Shown here in pieces: positions 8,060-43,335 of a stretch of DNA of 64,000 nt. The stretch's first letter is position 1. Each line of letters begins with the position of its first letter. The stretch is from Octopus vulgaris (taxonomy: Eukaryota), in contig OX597835.1 in assembly GCA_951406725.2 (NCBI GenBank), positions 20,956,001 through 21,020,000 of the forward strand, written 5' to 3'. The translations under genes and the position numbers were made by a program. The notes under the pieces were generated by a model. That model had not been told where the DNA came from. It saw only the letters and a program-made list of their open reading frames with translations, and made no database searches.

Positions 8060-9200
8060 TTTAACGTCTGTTTTCCATGCTCCCATGAGTTGAACTGCTT
8101 GATGAGAACTGGGAAGGTCAGGGGCCGCATCAGGTTCCATAGCATATTTTGACTTGGTTACTACGGGTGAAAGTTCTCCATCTCGCCAACTACTTTACAC
8201 AGTGTGCTGAGTACATTTTACATTTCACCATCTCTATTGCTTTTTACGTGGAACAATAACCAATACTTTTTTTACTGGCACCAGCACCAGCTCTTTTCCG
8301 TGGAACCAGCATACACACCAATGATTTATTGCGTGGCATCTTTATCTTGGGATCTCAATTTTGTTGTGGTGGGCGGGTCTTTTACGTACCATAATACACC
8401 ACGTATCTCGGCTTTCCTTTATCTTCACAAGGCTCAGCGTTTTCACATCATTCTTCAATATTTAGTCCCATATCTCTCTCGGTCACCCTCTTCCGCACTT
8501 TCCCCCGCTATCAATAATTGGCACTTCTCTATACCACTGCTCTCATTCATCTGAATCACATGCTCAAAGCAGCACATTCTCTTCTCTTCAACCCTGCATT
8601 TAATTCCTTTTATGCCCAACTTCTGTCTCAATACACCAGTGCTTTGTCGCACATTCACAGAGCATGCCAGTTCCGTTCCCTTCCAATCTTCCTGCCCTTT
8701 GCGTCCGGGACCCACGTCTCACTAGCATTCAGTGTGGAAGCACTCCGTCGGTTACGACGATGAGGGTTCCGGTTGATCCGAATCAACGGAACAGCCTGCT
8801 CGTGAAATTAACGTGTAAGTGGCTGAGCACTCCACAGACACGTGCACCCTTAACGTAGTTCTCGGGGATATTCAGCGTGACACAGAGAGTGACAAGGCCG
8901 GCCCTTTTGAAATACAGGTACAACAGAAACAGAAAGTAAGAGTGAGAGAAAGTTGTGGTGAAAGAGTACAGCAGGGATCACCACCATCCCTGCCGGAGCG
9001 TCGTGGATCTTTTTTAGGTGTTTTCGCTCAATAAACACTCACAATGCCCGGTCTGGGAATCGAAACCGTGATCCTATGACCGCGAGTCCGCTGCCCTAAC
9101 CACTGGGCCATTGCGCCTCCACTCTAGCATTCAACATAGCAGTTCGTATACATGGATCATACAATCTTCCTTTTTATTCGAAGCGCAGAGGTCAGGAATA
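8060..9200 (-). mobile_element. RTE-like LINE 3' remnant, split by a SINE
   Basis: Minus-strand translation KGRLYDPCIRTAMLNASETW, then ...LRQKLGIKGIKCRVEEKRMCCFEHVIQM, resembling the RTE ORF C-terminus (YGSETW, RLRWFGHVxRM). Confidence 0.7.
8732..9123 (-). mobile_element. Full-length tRNA-headed SINE (same family as 47604-47991)
   Basis: Head GGAGGCGCAATGGCCCAGTGGTTAGGGCAGCGGACTCGCGG...GTTTCGATTCCC has A and B boxes. 10-bp TSD CTAGCATTCA at 8722-8731 and 9124-9133. Confidence 0.9.
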
Positions 9201-9242: not shown

Positions 9243-9839
9243 AAGGCGGCGAGCTGGCAGAAACGTTAGCACGCCGGGCGAAATGCTTCGCGGTATTTCG
9301 TCTGCGTTACGTTCTGAGTTCAAATTCCGCCGAGGTCGACTTTGCCTTTCATCCTTTCGGGGTCGATAAATTAAGTACCAGTTACGCACTGGGGTCGATG
9401 TAATCGACTTAATACCTATGTCTGTCCTTGTTTGTCCCCTGTGTGTTTAGCCCTTGTGGGTAATAAAGAAATAGGTATTTCGTCTGCGTTACGTTGTGAG
9501 TTCAAATTCCACCGAGGTCGACTTTGCCTTTCATCCTTTCGGGGTCGATAATTTAAGTACCAGTTACGCACTGGGGTCGATGTAATCGACTTAATCCTTT
9601 GTCCGTCCTTGTTTGTCCCCTCTGTGTTTAGCCCCTTGTGGGTAATAAAGAAATAGGTATTTCGTCTGTCGTTACGTTGTGAGTTCAAATTCCGCCGAGG
9701 TCGACTTTGCCTTTCATCCTTTCGGGGTCGATAAATTAAGTACCAGTTACGCACTGGGGTCGATGTAATCGACTTAATACCTATGTCTGTCCTTGTTTGT
9801 CCCATCTGTGTTTAGCCCCTTCTGGGTAATAAAGAAATA
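9243..9839 (+). mobile_element. Meta-domain SINE trimer (head plus three ~183-bp units)
   Basis: Units start at 9292, 9474 and 9656. It has an A-box-like TGGCAGAAACGTT, B-box GAGTTCAAATTCC, the GCCTTTCATCCTTTCGGGGTCGATAAA core, and a 15-bp TSD at 9228-9242/9840-9854. The Meta-domain name is from recall, not a search. Confidence 0.85.
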
Positions 9840-10077
9840 GGTATTGACTGACCTCACTCAACATAAAATTGCTGGCATCGTGCCAAAACTTGAAACGAAT
9901 GACGTTGCGTTTGTTGTTGTGTTTGGTGTTGTTGCATTTGTTTTTATTGATGTTCGTTGTTTTCTTTTCGCTTTTCTTCGGAATTATTCTCACTCGCGAA
10001 TTTATTACAAATATAAGAGTCTCATTCCAGACAATTACTGTCATTGCTCTCATTTTGCTGAACTCCGAATGTTTTAT

Positions 10078-11373: not shown

Positions 11374-11449
11374 CACAAATGCATATATATAAATATATAT
11401 ACGTATATGTGCATGTATATATCCATGTATTTGTATATATATATATATA

Positions 11450-11652
11450 ACGGGAAGCTTTATGAAAATAGACAAAAGACGAAGGCAGGTGGAAAACAAA
11501 CAAACAATTGTATTAGTATGGCGCTCAGGAAATATAAATAAAACAAGTCTTTAACGTTTCGAGCTTACGCTCTTCAACAGAAAGATACACAGAGAGAAAA
11601 AAACACAGAAAGAAGGAGAGAAAAAAAATGCGTGCAGTAACTCACGAACCAA
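11450..11652 (-). mobile_element. Short (TA)n-flanked element with minimal hammerhead-like motif (family also at 53100 and 60367)
   Basis: Minus 11585-11548 reads UCUUU-CUGUUGA-A-GAGC-GUAA-GCUC-GAAA-CGUU-AAAGA. Homologous copies lie at 53100-53280 (+) and 60367-60527 (-). Confidence 0.7.
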
Positions 11653-11729
11653 TATATATATATATATATATATATGTTTGTATGTGTACATATATGTTTG
11701 TATGTATGCATATATTTTTATTTATCACC

Positions 11730-11765
<36 letters not shown>

Positions 11766-11767
<2 letters not shown>

Positions 11768-12152
11768 ACGATCACCAACGTACCAATTTGTTTCACTCGT
11801 TAATATCTACGTATATAAACACGCAGAAATCTGCAAGATCATCAACGTAGTCTGTCGCTTGCAAAACAATTTCCAGAACTAGATACAGAACGCTCAGCCG
11901 AGGTCTATCATGTGTAAAGTTCTACATGTTATATGTGCGTGTAATCCTTCCAAATGCCTTCACTTTGCCACGCTTGGACCGGAAATCACTCTGCAGTTAA
12001 TAAATTTGAGCAGCTTCGGTTGATCGTTCTGTATCTAGTTCTGGAAATTGCGTTTTGTAAACGACAGACTACGCTGAGGACCTTGCAGATATCTGCGTGT
12101 TTGCATACGTAGATATTAGCAAGTGAAACCATTGGTACGTAGGTGATCGTTT
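11766..12152. repeat. ~390-bp fold-back palindrome with ~138-bp arms, each carrying a hammerhead motif
   Basis: 11766-11903 is an imperfect reverse complement of 12014-12152, with a ~110-bp spacer. Confidence 0.9.
12069..12142 (+). ncRNA. Type I hammerhead ribozyme motif with extended helix II
   Basis: CUACG-CUGAGGA(12074-80)-C-CUUGC...GCAAG-U-GAAA(12125-28)-CCA-U-UGG-UA-CGUAG. Predicted cleavage is after A12137. Confidence 0.75.
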
Positions 12153-12280
12153 GTATTTCGTATGTTTTGGTCTGTCTTGCTCATTGTTACATTTTGGCAT
12201 TTTGCTGAGATTTTTTCTGAGATTTGACGTCTATGTTTAGCATACAGAGTGTTCATTTTAGTGGTCATTCCTCTTAATTT

Positions 12281-12318
<38 letters not shown>

Positions 12319-14137: not shown

Positions 14138-14500
14138 GCGCAGGAGTGGCTGTATGGTATATACATTTCTTTACTACCCACAAAGGGTTAAACACAGAGG
14201 GGGCAAACAAGGACAGACAAATGGATTGAATCGATTATATCGACCCCAGTGCGTAACTGGTACTTATTTAATCGACCTCGAAAGGATGAAAGGCAAAGTC
14301 GACCTCGGCGGAATTTGAACTCAGAACGTAACGGCAGACAAAATACGGCTAAGCATTTCGTCCGGCGTGCTAACAATTCTGCCAGCTCAGAATGGTATAT
14401 AGTTTGCTTACCAACCACATGGTTCCGGGTTCAGTCCCACGGCTTGGCACCTTGAGCAAGTGTCTTCTTCTATAGCCTCGAACCGACAGGAGCCTTGCAA
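14138..14500. mobile_element. Nested SINEs: Meta-domain SINE monomer (-, 14164-14391) inserted in the head of a CORE-like SINE (+)
   Basis: Host GCGCAGGAGTGGCTGT|...AGTTTGCTTACCAACCACATGGTTCCGGGTTCAGTCCC matches the 19131 copy. TSD ATGGTATATA at 14154-14163 and 14392-14401. Confidence 0.88.
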
Positions 14501-20444: not shown

Positions 20445-20446
20445 GT

Positions 20447-21623
20447 TAGTACACCGGGTGAATTGCTTGTTTGCTGCGGGTCACATATTTGCCGTGCTGA
20501 GGTTTCTCCTCCCACCTATCAGCCAATTGCTCGTGCGCTTTTTTCATTGCCATCATTTTCACCTTCTTTGCAACAATAGTTGCCGTACTTCCCTCGGGTT
20601 GTTCAGTTTGGGTATCCTGCACGAGATCAATAGCAAATTTTTTGCTTTCCTTGATGATAGAATGAAGCTTCTTTCGTCTCTCGTGATTTTCCACGAGCTT
20701 TAGCATCCAGTCATTCGATATTTCGAGATATTTGGCCAGTCCAATTGTGGTTGTTTTGTAAGCTAGTTCAAATTGGATCAGGCCTCGACCTCCTTGGACT
20801 CTGGGAAGGTAAAGGCGATCTACGTCTGCCTTTGGGTGGTGCATCCTATTACAACTCAGCAGCTTGCGTATTTTCCTATCTATATTCTTTACTTCACTCA
20901 TATTCCAGTTCAACACATTGTAGCTATAAGTAACAACTGGAACTGCTAAGGAATTTATAGCTAACACCTTGTTACGTGCATTTAGTTCAGATTTCAGGAC
21001 TGCACGAACTCTCCTATAACATTCCTTCCTGATTTTCTCTTTCATGCTTGCATGCTGAATACCAGAGCCTTCATTTATCCCTAAATATTTGTATGTTTGT
21101 TCTTGCTCAAGCTCTCTTATGGCTGTGTCAACATCTAACACGACTGAATTTGTGGTCTTCACTTTCCCTTTCTGGAAAGTGGCCTTGGCACACTTCTCAA
21201 GTCCAAACTACATCTCGATGTCATCGCTGAATGCTTTCACGGTGCGCAATAGGCCTTCAAGTTCATTATTGTCTTTACCATAAAGTTTTAAGTCATCCTT
21301 ATAAAATAGATGGCTTATTTTTTAATTGGCAATTTTATACCCATACCCTGTTCTGTTTAATTCACTTGTAAGGGGTATTAGGGCTATGCAGAATATTAAA
21401 GGTGAAAGTGAGTCACCTTGAAAAATTCCACAGTTGATGTTTATATTTTCTGAGGCAAGTACTCCATTAGAGTGGTATAATTGGAGATTCGTATTCCACA
21501 ACGACATATTGTGCTTCGGGAAGTTTGAAATCACAGGGGAAATTTTGAAGATGTCCAGCGATCTCAAGATCCATGGATGCGGTATACTGTCGAAGGCCAT
21601 TTTATAGTCAATCCATGCGGTGC
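20447..21623 (-). mobile_element. R4/Dong-clade non-LTR retrotransposon reverse transcriptase fragment (pseudogene)
   Basis: One frame with two stops: WIDYKMAFDSIPH, GIFQGDSLSP, ISHLFYKDDLKLY, YKYLG, LYLPRVQGGRGL. It is bordered by (TAA)n, the known Dong target. Confidence 0.9.
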
Positions 21624-21691
<68 letters not shown>

Positions 21692-21695
<4 letters not shown>

Positions 21696-22262
21696 GTTTG
21701 ACTTTTGCTTTATGTCTGTACAAGTTGGCTCCAAGTCTCACCCAGAGACCTCAAGAGACAACAGGTTGGAAGTTCATGTTGTTGTTATGCCTTGTGTGCC
21801 ATATATTTGGGGTTTTTTGTGTTGTACTAGTGAATGTCTAATACATAAATAAAAAAAAGTTTGTTTTAAACCTTGGGATTACACAGAGAGTATTTTGCGT
21901 AGGATATGAGCAGTTCCCATGAGTACTATCTTTTAAATTTCTGCCATTTTGGGGTTTCTTGGTATCTGAGTTAGGTAGTAATCAGCCCCTTTCGCTATCA
22001 TTCCCAGGGCACCTATGAAAACAGGTATTGTTTTAGACTTCAGGTTCCACATTTTGCTGATTTCTATTTCAAGATCTTTGTATTTGCTCAGTTTTTGGTA
22101 GGTCTTGACAGATACGTTTATATCGATTGGGACAGTCATATCAATGAGGAGGCATGCTCTTTGTCTGAAGTCTTTCAATATGATGTCTGGCCTATTTGCA
22201 TCTATCTTTCTGTCAGTTTGAATGGTGAAGTTCCAGAGAAGTGAGATGTGGTCATTTTTTCC
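21692..22262 (-). mobile_element. 5'-truncated R4/Dong 3' end (restriction-like endonuclease plus 3' UTR), copy B
   Basis: WNFTIQTDRKIDANRPDII...IDMTVP...KLSKYKDL...GALG, with a premature stop at about 21933 and a (TAA)n tail. Confidence 0.9.
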
Positions 22263-22955
<693 letters not shown>

Positions 22956-22958
22956 TAC

Positions 22959-23003
<45 letters not shown>

Positions 23004-23026
23004 CATTATTATTATTATTATTATTA

Positions 23027-24050
<1,024 letters not shown>

Positions 24051-42465: not shown

Positions 42466-42541
42466 ATTTATATATATACATATATATACATATATACATA
42501 TATATATATATAATTCATAAATTTATTTCTTTTGCCACGTG

Positions 42542-42599
42542 TATCACTGACGAAGGGAGGGCTGTTATAAGCTAACCCAGAAATCGGTCCGGTATGGTA
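42542..42599 (+). ncRNA. Type I hammerhead ribozyme motif, copy 1
   Basis: UAUCA-CUGACGA(42547-53)-AGGG...CCCA-GAAA-UCGG-U-CCGG-UA-UGGUA. It has an A.A mismatch at the base of helix II. Confidence 0.7.
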
Positions 42600-42968
42600 A
42601 TAATGGAATTTTTTAAGAAATTTATGTCGACCTTTATTCGAGTAGCATGCGAATTGTGAAAAAATTAATGGTTAATGGACAATATGTCCAATTTTTTTTG
42701 CATTAAGGTACTTTTAATATGCTGGCCATTGATAAGATTTTATGTTGGAAAATAATTTTTTTCCAAAAAAATTTTATCCTACATTAAGATATAAATTTAA
42801 GCGTTCACTTCCGGACTCTTTCACTCTGTGAGAGAATCAGTTCAAATCGCACGTGTCTCGAATGGGCTGGAGTATTTCTATTTTGGATGTATTTGGGGTG
42901 CTCATGACTTAGTGTTTGCTTCTTCCATGAGTATGTGTAAGTATCTCATTTATTTATTTTGCCACATG

Positions 42969-43026
42969 TATCACTGACGAAGGGAGGGCTGTTATAAGCT
43001 AACCCTGAAATCGGTCCGATATGGTA
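42969..43026 (+). ncRNA. Type I hammerhead ribozyme motif, copy 2
   Basis: UAUCA-CUGACGA(42974-80)-AGGG...CCCU-GAAA-UCGG-U-CCGA-UA-UGGUA. All three helices pair; predicted cleavage is after A43021. Confidence 0.8.
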
Positions 43027-43273
43027 ATAATGGAATTTTTTAGAAATTTCTGTCAACCTTTTTTCGAGTAGCGTGCGAATTGTGAAAACATTTTTGGTTA
43101 ATGGACAATATGTCCAATTTTTCGGCATATTTGGCATTAGAATTTTTTTCGTTTGCCCTTATTTATAAATTGTTTATAAATTTAACCTTTAAAGGTATTT
43201 TTTAATATGCTGGCCATTGATAAGATGTTTTTTGGAAAATAATTATTTTCGAAAAATATTTTATCCTACATTA

Positions 43274-43335
<62 letters not shown>

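What the first reader, a model, noticed from the sequence alone, without database searches (positions are those of the whole stretch)
11766..12152. Viroid-sized palindrome with a hammerhead on each strand
Seen: ~138-bp inverted arms. The right arm has a full plus-strand hammerhead (CUGAGGA, GUA site at 12137). The left arm gives the minus-strand counterpart with UUGAUGA and a weaker helix III. Transcripts of either polarity would form a long rod and carry a ribozyme near the 3' end, superficially like ambisense hammerhead viroid-like RNAs. Inference: more likely an inverted Penelope-type pLTR pair. The rod would compete with ribozyme folding and would be an ADAR/Dicer substrate, which matters in a lineage with heavy A-to-I editing.
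Basis: partly seen in the sequence, partly recalled or inferred. Interest (0 to 1): 0.72.

Follow-up and report, generated by a model that had tools for sequence, protein, structure and literature searches.

The report
Back-to-back copies of a ribozyme retroelement
The palindrome is two cut-short copies of a 533-letter, protein-free genomic repeat joined back to back between TA repeats; the repeat carries a hammerhead ribozyme motif (cutting untested) and was likely pasted in by a Penelope-type jumping gene, so this is an ordinary insertion scar, not a viroid-like RNA.

Summary
The arms (123 of 138 aligned bases identical) and both hammerhead motifs are real, but the palindrome is not a unit. 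It is two 5'-truncated copies of a 533-nt non-coding repeat (at least 296-322 copies) joined 5'-to-5': monomer 36-287 on the minus strand, 147-441 on the plus strand, with both outer ends in (TA)n. The right copy runs 130 nt past the finding. The 'spacer' is ordinary monomer sequence, and the junction occurs once in the genome. Head-to-head pairs are common in the family (19 of 27 loci picked without regard to the ribozyme), and all 41 junctions seen differ. The family's type I hammerhead is conserved, with a compensatory pair in each helix. The minus-strand copy here is decayed (C3U, broken helix III and helix I pairs), and the rod is predicted to beat the ribozyme fold by 63-72 kcal/mol. With one cut site per strand, the locus cannot release a circle. 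Best reading: a non-LTR retrozyme mobilised by a Penelope-like element. Opposite-strand hammerhead pairs and inverted truncated copies are described in print, and this scan found the same pattern on other DNA of this genome. The partner element, cleavage and transcription are unshown.

The parts
11730..11762 (.). (TA)n tract, left half of the inferred target site
   Evidence: Sequence. 23 of 27 family loci have a TA/CA-type repeat just past the 3' end.
11763..12014 (-). 5'-truncated copy of the 533-nt monomer (positions 36-287), 3' end pointing left
   Evidence: blastn to the family majority sequence, 87%.
11766..11860 (-). Decayed type I hammerhead motif: U3 instead of C3 (11845), C15.3>A breaking a helix III pair, one helix I pair broken; cut site after 11781
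   Evidence: Folding alone is no better than shuffles (z -1.23).
11904..12014 (-). 'Spacer': monomer positions 36-146, the unpaired 5' part of the left copy
   Evidence: 38 of 39 other scored places match arm plus spacer together as one stretch.
12014..12015 (.). Head-to-head (5'-to-5') junction, blunt, no TA remnant
   Evidence: One match in the genome at up to 2 mismatches.
12015..12283 (+). 5'-truncated copy of the monomer (positions 147-441, 25-nt internal deletion), ending at the family's commonest 3' end
   Evidence: blastn, 84% including the deletion; 3' ends of other copies.
12059..12152 (+). Type I hammerhead motif with intact core (CUGAGGA 12074-12080, GAAA 12125-12128), long helix II, 3-bp helix III, cut site after A12137
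   Evidence: Folds better than shuffles (z -3.83), but the hammerhead fold lies 3.1 kcal/mol above the ensemble of the isolated arm.
12285..12316 (.). (TA)n tract, right half of the inferred target site
   Evidence: Sequence.

Best explanation
The locus is two 5'-truncated copies of a 533-nt non-coding, hammerhead-bearing repeat joined head-to-head inside a (TA)n tract, likely made in one insertion by a Penelope-like element's reverse transcriptase/endonuclease acting in trans.

Shown: the monomer, its copy number, the two truncated copies, the unique junction, the (TA)n ends, and the conserved, covarying hammerhead fold of the family.

Inferred: (1) source loci, probably tandem, are transcribed, and the hammerhead cuts, likely best as a dimer through its short, often palindromic helix III. 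(2) The PLE enzyme nicks both strands of a (TA)n tract, which reads the same on both strands, and primes cDNA from each nick. (3) Both cDNAs stop early and their 5' ends are joined, giving inverted arms wherever the two copies overlap. Here both happened to include the ribozyme. (4) The locus has since decayed by about 7% per arm. If transcribed, it would fold as a rod that blocks cleavage.
For: Family: 296 exact matches to a 27-mer in the ribozyme and 322 to a 27-mer outside it, controls 0; a tandem pair with period 534 (L034). Junction unique. All 41 head-to-head junctions in 82 loci have different coordinate pairs, and 33 of 41 inverted pieces end at the family's two usual 3' ends. 19 of 27 loci picked outside the ribozyme are head-to-head, and 0 of those 27 have a hammerhead on both strands; 1 of 54 earlier loci does (L046). 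Compensatory pairs in helices I, II and III. Core mismatches 5/330 against 157/3165 at non-core, non-CpG sites (p=0.002). Three intact RT + GIY-YIG PLE families in the same genome show tandem, head-to-head and (TA)n-ended copies. In print: inverted 5'-truncated copies and (TA)n targeting (PMC8557442); dual hammerheads 100-700 bp apart on opposite strands (PMC4209133); a PLE protein that cleaves and extends both strands in vitro (PMC11167929).
Against: No autonomous partner was identified: the monomer has no significant similarity to the flanks of PLE families 1 and 2, and it abuts a family-3 copy in only 1 of 20 loci, which a shared target explains. The left copy's 3' end (287) is not one of the usual ends; 8 of 41 inverted pieces are like this. 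The two arms are no closer than random copies (d 0.129; 46% of other comparisons are as close), whereas 22 of 24 other inverted pairs are closer than the median. This fits two templates, but also two separate insertions. Tandem arrays seen hold under two full monomers. Cleavage, transcription and circular RNA are untested.
Confidence: 0.86

Rival explanations
1. Two separate insertions of the family into the same (TA)n tract, the second landing in the opposite orientation at the 5' end of the first.
For: The arms differ at five sites that are polymorphic in the family (monomer 193, 235, 236, 264 and the helix III loop length) and share only one non-consensus base. Family copies do land beside other (TA)n-targeting elements (L139).
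Against: There is no TA remnant at the junction. Head-to-head joins occur in 19 of 27 loci, far more than chance re-insertion at a few hundred to a few thousand copies would give. Both arms have similar divergence, 7.6% and 6.9%.
Confidence: 0.07
2. A later local fold-back or inversion duplicated part of a single copy.
For: One shared rare base, A277G, found in 1 of 64 other copies.
Against: A fold-back would start from identical arms, yet the arms carry different inherited family variants. The left copy holds monomer 36-146, which the right copy lacks, and the right holds 288-441, which the left lacks.
Confidence: 0.04
3. A viroid-like or ambisense-ribozyme RNA unit with working hammerheads in both polarities, endogenised or maintained as a unit.
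For: Size, rod-like fold and one hammerhead motif per strand.
Against: The junction is unique. Each strand has one cut site, so no unit-length RNA or circle can be released. The two motifs are inverted copies of one ribozyme, not two distinct ones. The minus core is damaged. The rod costs the ribozyme fold 63-72 kcal/mol. The right copy extends 130 nt beyond the palindrome.
Confidence: 0.01
4. The monomer is the pLTR of an autonomous PLE family not yet found, and the copies are its truncated ends rather than a separate non-autonomous retrozyme.
For: The architecture is the same as that of truncated PLEs. Only three PLE families were checked.
Against: Copies that run past monomer position 1 continue into the monomer's own 3' end, not into an ORF (22 of 54 loci tandem). 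47 free 5' flanks share no sequence between loci, and only 2 of 82 loci have PLE ORF sequence nearby, from two different families.
Confidence: 0.12

Closest known systems
Metazoan non-LTR retrozymes (Cervera and de la Pena 2020, PMC7229834; Li, Clavereau and Pollet 2026, 10.64898/2026.07.22.740005)
   Same: Non-coding, low-GC repeat with one type I hammerhead per unit, found as monomers and partial tandems. The short helix III and the U.U mismatch at the base of helix II resemble axolotl HHR_Amex2. A PLE origin is proposed for the group.
   Different: The monomer is 533 nt, against about 170-400 nt in the 2020 paper but inside the 51-972 bp range of the 2026 preprint. Helix II is extended by a 13-bp hairpin. 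Arrays seen hold under two units. Head-to-head joins are frequent. Circular RNA and cleavage are not shown here.
Insertion units of EN+ Penelope-like elements (PMC8557442 Fig. 2 legend; PMC4209133)
   Same: 5' truncation, partial tandems, an inverted 5'-truncated copy at the 5' end, (TA)n targets, and pairs of hammerheads 100-700 bp apart on opposite strands.
   Different: There is no RT/GIY-YIG ORF in or linked to the unit, and the hammerhead is of the canonical type with helix III, not a minimal one.
Viroids and viroid-like circular RNAs with paired ribozymes (PMC10162972, abstract start only)
   Same: Size, rod-like fold, one ribozyme motif per polarity.
   Different: This is genomic DNA made of two inverted copies of one repeat. 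It has a single cut site per strand, no conserved unit and no evidence of a circle or of RNA replication.

Membership tests
Type I hammerhead ribozyme | Core CUGANGA / GAAA / UH with three helices, helix I open | tested here: met
   Plus arm and family majority; 26 of 56 copies are fully intact. The minus arm deviates (U3 with G8, two broken pairs).
Type I hammerhead ribozyme | Structure kept by covariation | tested here: met
   One compensatory pair each in helices I, II and III. These are three inherited events, not independent counts, and two involve CpG-type transitions.
Type I hammerhead ribozyme | Self-cleavage at the predicted site | not testable with these tools
   Needs an in vitro assay.
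Metazoan non-LTR retrozyme | Short non-coding unit with one type I hammerhead; no LTR, PBS or ORF | tested here: met
   533-nt monomer with one hammerhead. No similarity to the PLE ORF loci. PBS and PPT were not searched for specifically.
Metazoan non-LTR retrozyme | Tandem repeats with two or more consecutive hammerhead-bearing units | tested here: met
   Met by the family (L034, L002: two hammerheads in tandem); not met by this locus, which is head-to-head.
Metazoan non-LTR retrozyme | Expressed as monomeric circular RNA | not testable with these tools
   Only contigs of runs guessed to be RNA were available. Family relatives occur in them, but contigs cannot show ends, strand or circles.
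Autonomous EN+ Penelope-like element | RT plus GIY-YIG ORF framed by the pLTR | tested here: not met
   No such ORF at the locus. The monomer is not the pLTR of the three families checked.
PLE-type insertion | 5' truncation, partial tandems, inverted 5' copy, microsatellite target | tested here: met
Viroid-like circular RNA with paired ribozymes | A conserved unit-length sequence that is cut out and circularised in each polarity | tested here: not met
   Junction unique; one cut site per strand; the rod blocks the fold.
Viroid-like circular RNA with paired ribozymes | RNA-to-RNA replication | not testable with these tools
   No RNA holder listed.

The most novel reading that the evidence does not exclude
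This is a cephalopod retrozyme that travels as a 533-nt circular RNA, which a dimeric Penelope-type enzyme copies for more than one turn and from both strands of a single (TA)n cut. At this locus the two active sites used two different RNA molecules, so head-to-head pairs of the family record how PLE inverted repeats form. Such pairs would also supply hairpin double-stranded RNA against the family.
Probability: 0.25. Interest if true: 0.5.

Novelty: new member of a known kind. Interest (0 to 1): 0.2.

Why it matters
The palindrome itself matters little: it is a dead, one-off insertion of a type already described. The family behind it has modest value. It is a hammerhead retroelement with clean covariation that I did not find in print. 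Its many short, head-to-head and tandem copies are a convenient natural data set for an open point, how PLE tandem and inverted repeats form (named as open in PMC8557442). It is also a caution for viroid hunts: inverted retrozyme insertions mimic rod-shaped RNAs with a ribozyme in each polarity.

Tried and rejected
Rfam: no hammerhead family among the 22 matches over 11400-12260. In the whole-window scan only 150 of 282 rows were shown, and none was a hammerhead.

Sequencing runs: no RNA holder listed for 11763-12283; this is not evidence either way. In 4 of 18 listed runs laid on the locus, 0 of 115 contigs were 99% alike or more. In 4 runs laid on a tandem copy, many short heterogeneous contigs matched; they show neither strand nor circles, and no silent-stretch control was laid.

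Partner search: an RT fragment upstream of L024 led to two intact 775-aa PLE families with no similarity to the monomer (best alignment scores within the shuffled range). L105/L139 led to a third family, joined to the monomer in 1 of 20 loci. I rejected this as proof of partnership, because insertion of the PLE into the monomer's TA tail gives the same picture.

This is inconclusive, as no control was run.

Pile-up of 5' ends at the cut site: not seen (1 of 69 within 267-273). The earlier-findings look-up by sequence found no look-alike.

Full report
Observation. The inverted arms are real: 11763-11901 and 12016-12155, with 123 of 138 aligned columns identical and 3 gap positions, and the 387-nt stretch folds as a rod in both polarities. 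The plus arm carries a type I hammerhead motif with an intact core (C3 at 12074, GAAA at 12125-12128, GUA cut site ending at 12137). The minus arm carries the same motif with U3, a C15.3>A change in helix III and a broken helix I pair. Rfam did not recognise either: none of 22 matches at E<=10 is a hammerhead. The genome has 2.8 Gb in 227 contigs. That it is an octopus is my inference from size and microsatellite content, and earlier notes also call it so; no call named it.

The unit is a 533-nt monomer, not the palindrome. A genome search with the 387 bases scored 40 of 942 candidates. Of the 39 places other than the window, 38 matched only left arm plus spacer, and one spanned the query at 76% through a different inversion. 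Aligning these loci gave a 533-nt majority monomer, built from 8 full-length loci. On it, the window is a minus-strand copy of positions 36-287 (12014 to 11763) joined directly to a plus-strand copy of positions 147-441 (12015-12283). The arms are the overlap of the two copies, the spacer is positions 36-146, and the right copy extends 130 nt past the finding. Both outer ends run into (TA)n. Two exact 27-mers occur 296 and 322 times, with reversed controls at 0. These are lower bounds: only 14 of 30 of the best copies match the first pattern. A 25-mer across the junction occurs once at up to 2 mismatches.

Head-to-head joins are the family's habit. Among 54 loci picked by the arm or the ribozyme, 23 were solo, 22 had an upstream partial tandem and 19 an inverted piece, 10 of them both (4 duplicate loci and the window were dropped). 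Among 27 further loci picked by a 27-mer outside the ribozyme (3 duplicates dropped from 30), 19 were head-to-head, 5 held a whole hammerhead, none had one on both strands, and 23 ended in TA/CA-type repeats. All 41 junctions in the 82 loci, the window included, have different coordinate pairs, and 33 of the 41 inverted pieces end at the family's usual 3' ends (442-453 or 505-533); the window's 287 is among the 8 exceptions. One other locus, L046, has a hammerhead on each strand. So the finding is the uncommon case in which both truncated copies reached the ribozyme.

The family's ribozyme looks selected; this locus looks dead. RNAalifold on 18 copies (16 of 56 family copies plus the two arms) returns the hammerhead fold, with compensatory pairs in helices I, II and III. 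Counts over 56 copies agree. The helix III change keeps both the pair and the palindrome of the longer loop variant, the feature linked to dimer cleavage in PMC4209133 (passages). Core positions mismatch at 5/330 against 157/3165 for non-core, non-CpG positions in DNA-picked copies (p=0.002), and 4/116 against 106/1129 in the unselected half of pattern-picked copies (p=0.04); copies are related, so these p values are generous. The base of helix II is U.U in 51 of 55 copies, as described for axolotl HHR_Amex2, which cleaves weakly as a monomer and better as a dimer (PMC7229834, passages and part 3 of 6). In folding, the hammerhead conformation costs 0.7 kcal/mol in the majority sequence, 3.1 in the isolated plus arm, 3.8 in the minus arm, and 63 and 72 in the full locus. 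Natural U3/G8 hammerheads with reduced rates exist (PMC7151607, passages), so U3 alone need not kill the minus motif. It is, however, found in only 1 of 61 other copies and comes with two more lesions.

Mechanism. Inverted 5'-truncated copies, partial tandems and (TA)n targeting are the described signature of PLE insertions (PMC8557442, passages). Dual hammerheads 100-700 bp apart on opposite strands were reported for PLE remnants. A purified PLE protein nicks AT-rich DNA, extends both strands and is predicted to be a dimer; it does not need ribozyme cleavage for insertion in vitro (PMC11167929, parts 1-2 of 4). Non-LTR retrozymes are proposed to be non-autonomous PLE derivatives (bioRxiv 10.64898/2026.07.22.740005, parts 1-2 of 5). 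This genome holds at least three intact PLE families with RT and C-terminal GIY-YIG, with tandem, head-to-head and (TA)n-ended copies. I infer that such an enzyme primed on both strands of one (TA)n tract, and that the two short cDNAs were joined at their 5' ends. Copies read through both the cut site and the monomer boundary, up to about 1.8 units (L034, L002), so the template was a circle or an uncleaved multimer; these data cannot tell which.

Results against the reading. No partner was identified. The window's arms are no closer than random copies and differ at five family-polymorphic sites, while 22 of 24 other inverted pairs are closer than the median. Two templates in one event fit this, but two events are not excluded. 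5' ends do not pile up at the cut site. There is no evidence that this locus is transcribed. Family relatives occur in contigs of runs guessed to be RNA, which is weak evidence without a DNA control.

Viroid comparison. Viroid-like RNAs are circular and some carry paired ribozymes (PMC10162972, search listing and abstract start). Here each strand has one cut site, the two motifs are copies of one ribozyme, and the unit is not conserved, so membership fails.

Novelty. My two literature searches for cephalopod hammerhead or retrozyme families returned only the PLE survey as relevant. I read no supplements, and those of PMC8557442 or the 2026 preprint could list this family. The scan has already reported the same (TA)n, head-to-head, hammerhead pattern on other DNA of this genome. 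Verdict: a new member of a known kind; interest 0.2.

Noticed in passing
family monomer positions 280-293 (loci L002-L126): 5' truncation points cluster just past the 3' strand of the ribozyme's outer helix: 12 of 69 starts between 200 and 420 (post hoc binomial p 0.001; scan-corrected p 0.09). The window's left copy has its 3' end at the same place. This could be an RT stall or a T-run effect.
   Followed up: partly
L139 (G000:C1:85472000-85481900), minus strand: A monomer copy (105-533) is joined by three bases to a 5'-truncated but ORF-intact PLE of a third family (785-aa open frame; RT over the Pfam cut-off, GIY-YIG below it at E 0.002). It is either a template-switch chimera or an insertion into the monomer's TA tail; 1 of 20 family-3 loci.
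   Followed up: yes
L139/L153, 3' repeat of PLE family 3: By eye, a minimal hammerhead with the U3-A8 covariant core and a palindromic helix III. The family is young, with at least 96 near-identical copies of a 25-mer and ~4.4-kb tandems.
   Followed up: no
L093-L095, 3' repeat of PLE family 2: By eye, a minimal hammerhead with a U4C core and the same U.U mismatch at the base of helix II as the monomer family.
   Followed up: no
window 42521-43305: Two copies, 427 nt apart, of a different type I hammerhead (CUGACGA core), also present in L092.
   Followed up: no
window 11448-11650, minus strand: A separate repeat between (TA)n tracts, just left of the finding, with a degenerate minimal-hammerhead-like motif by eye; another copy lies in L094.
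   Followed up: no
run X5, contig on window 12015-12149: One depth-2 contig of a family relative shows A>G at five near-invariant positions. None of 56 genomic copies has more than three such A>G changes, but one has five T>C, so this is only a weak hint of A-to-I editing.
   Followed up: partly
window 9305-9852 and 14165-14346: Three tandem ~182-nt SINE-like units and an inverted copy 4.3 kb away.
   Followed up: no
window 20446-23183, minus strand: Broken LINE-like fragments with RT and restriction-like endonuclease motifs, recognised by eye from recall.
   Followed up: no
L139, reverse-strand positions 8143-8865: A 241-aa open frame that looks like a Helitron/PIF1-type helicase fragment, label recalled.
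   Followed up: no
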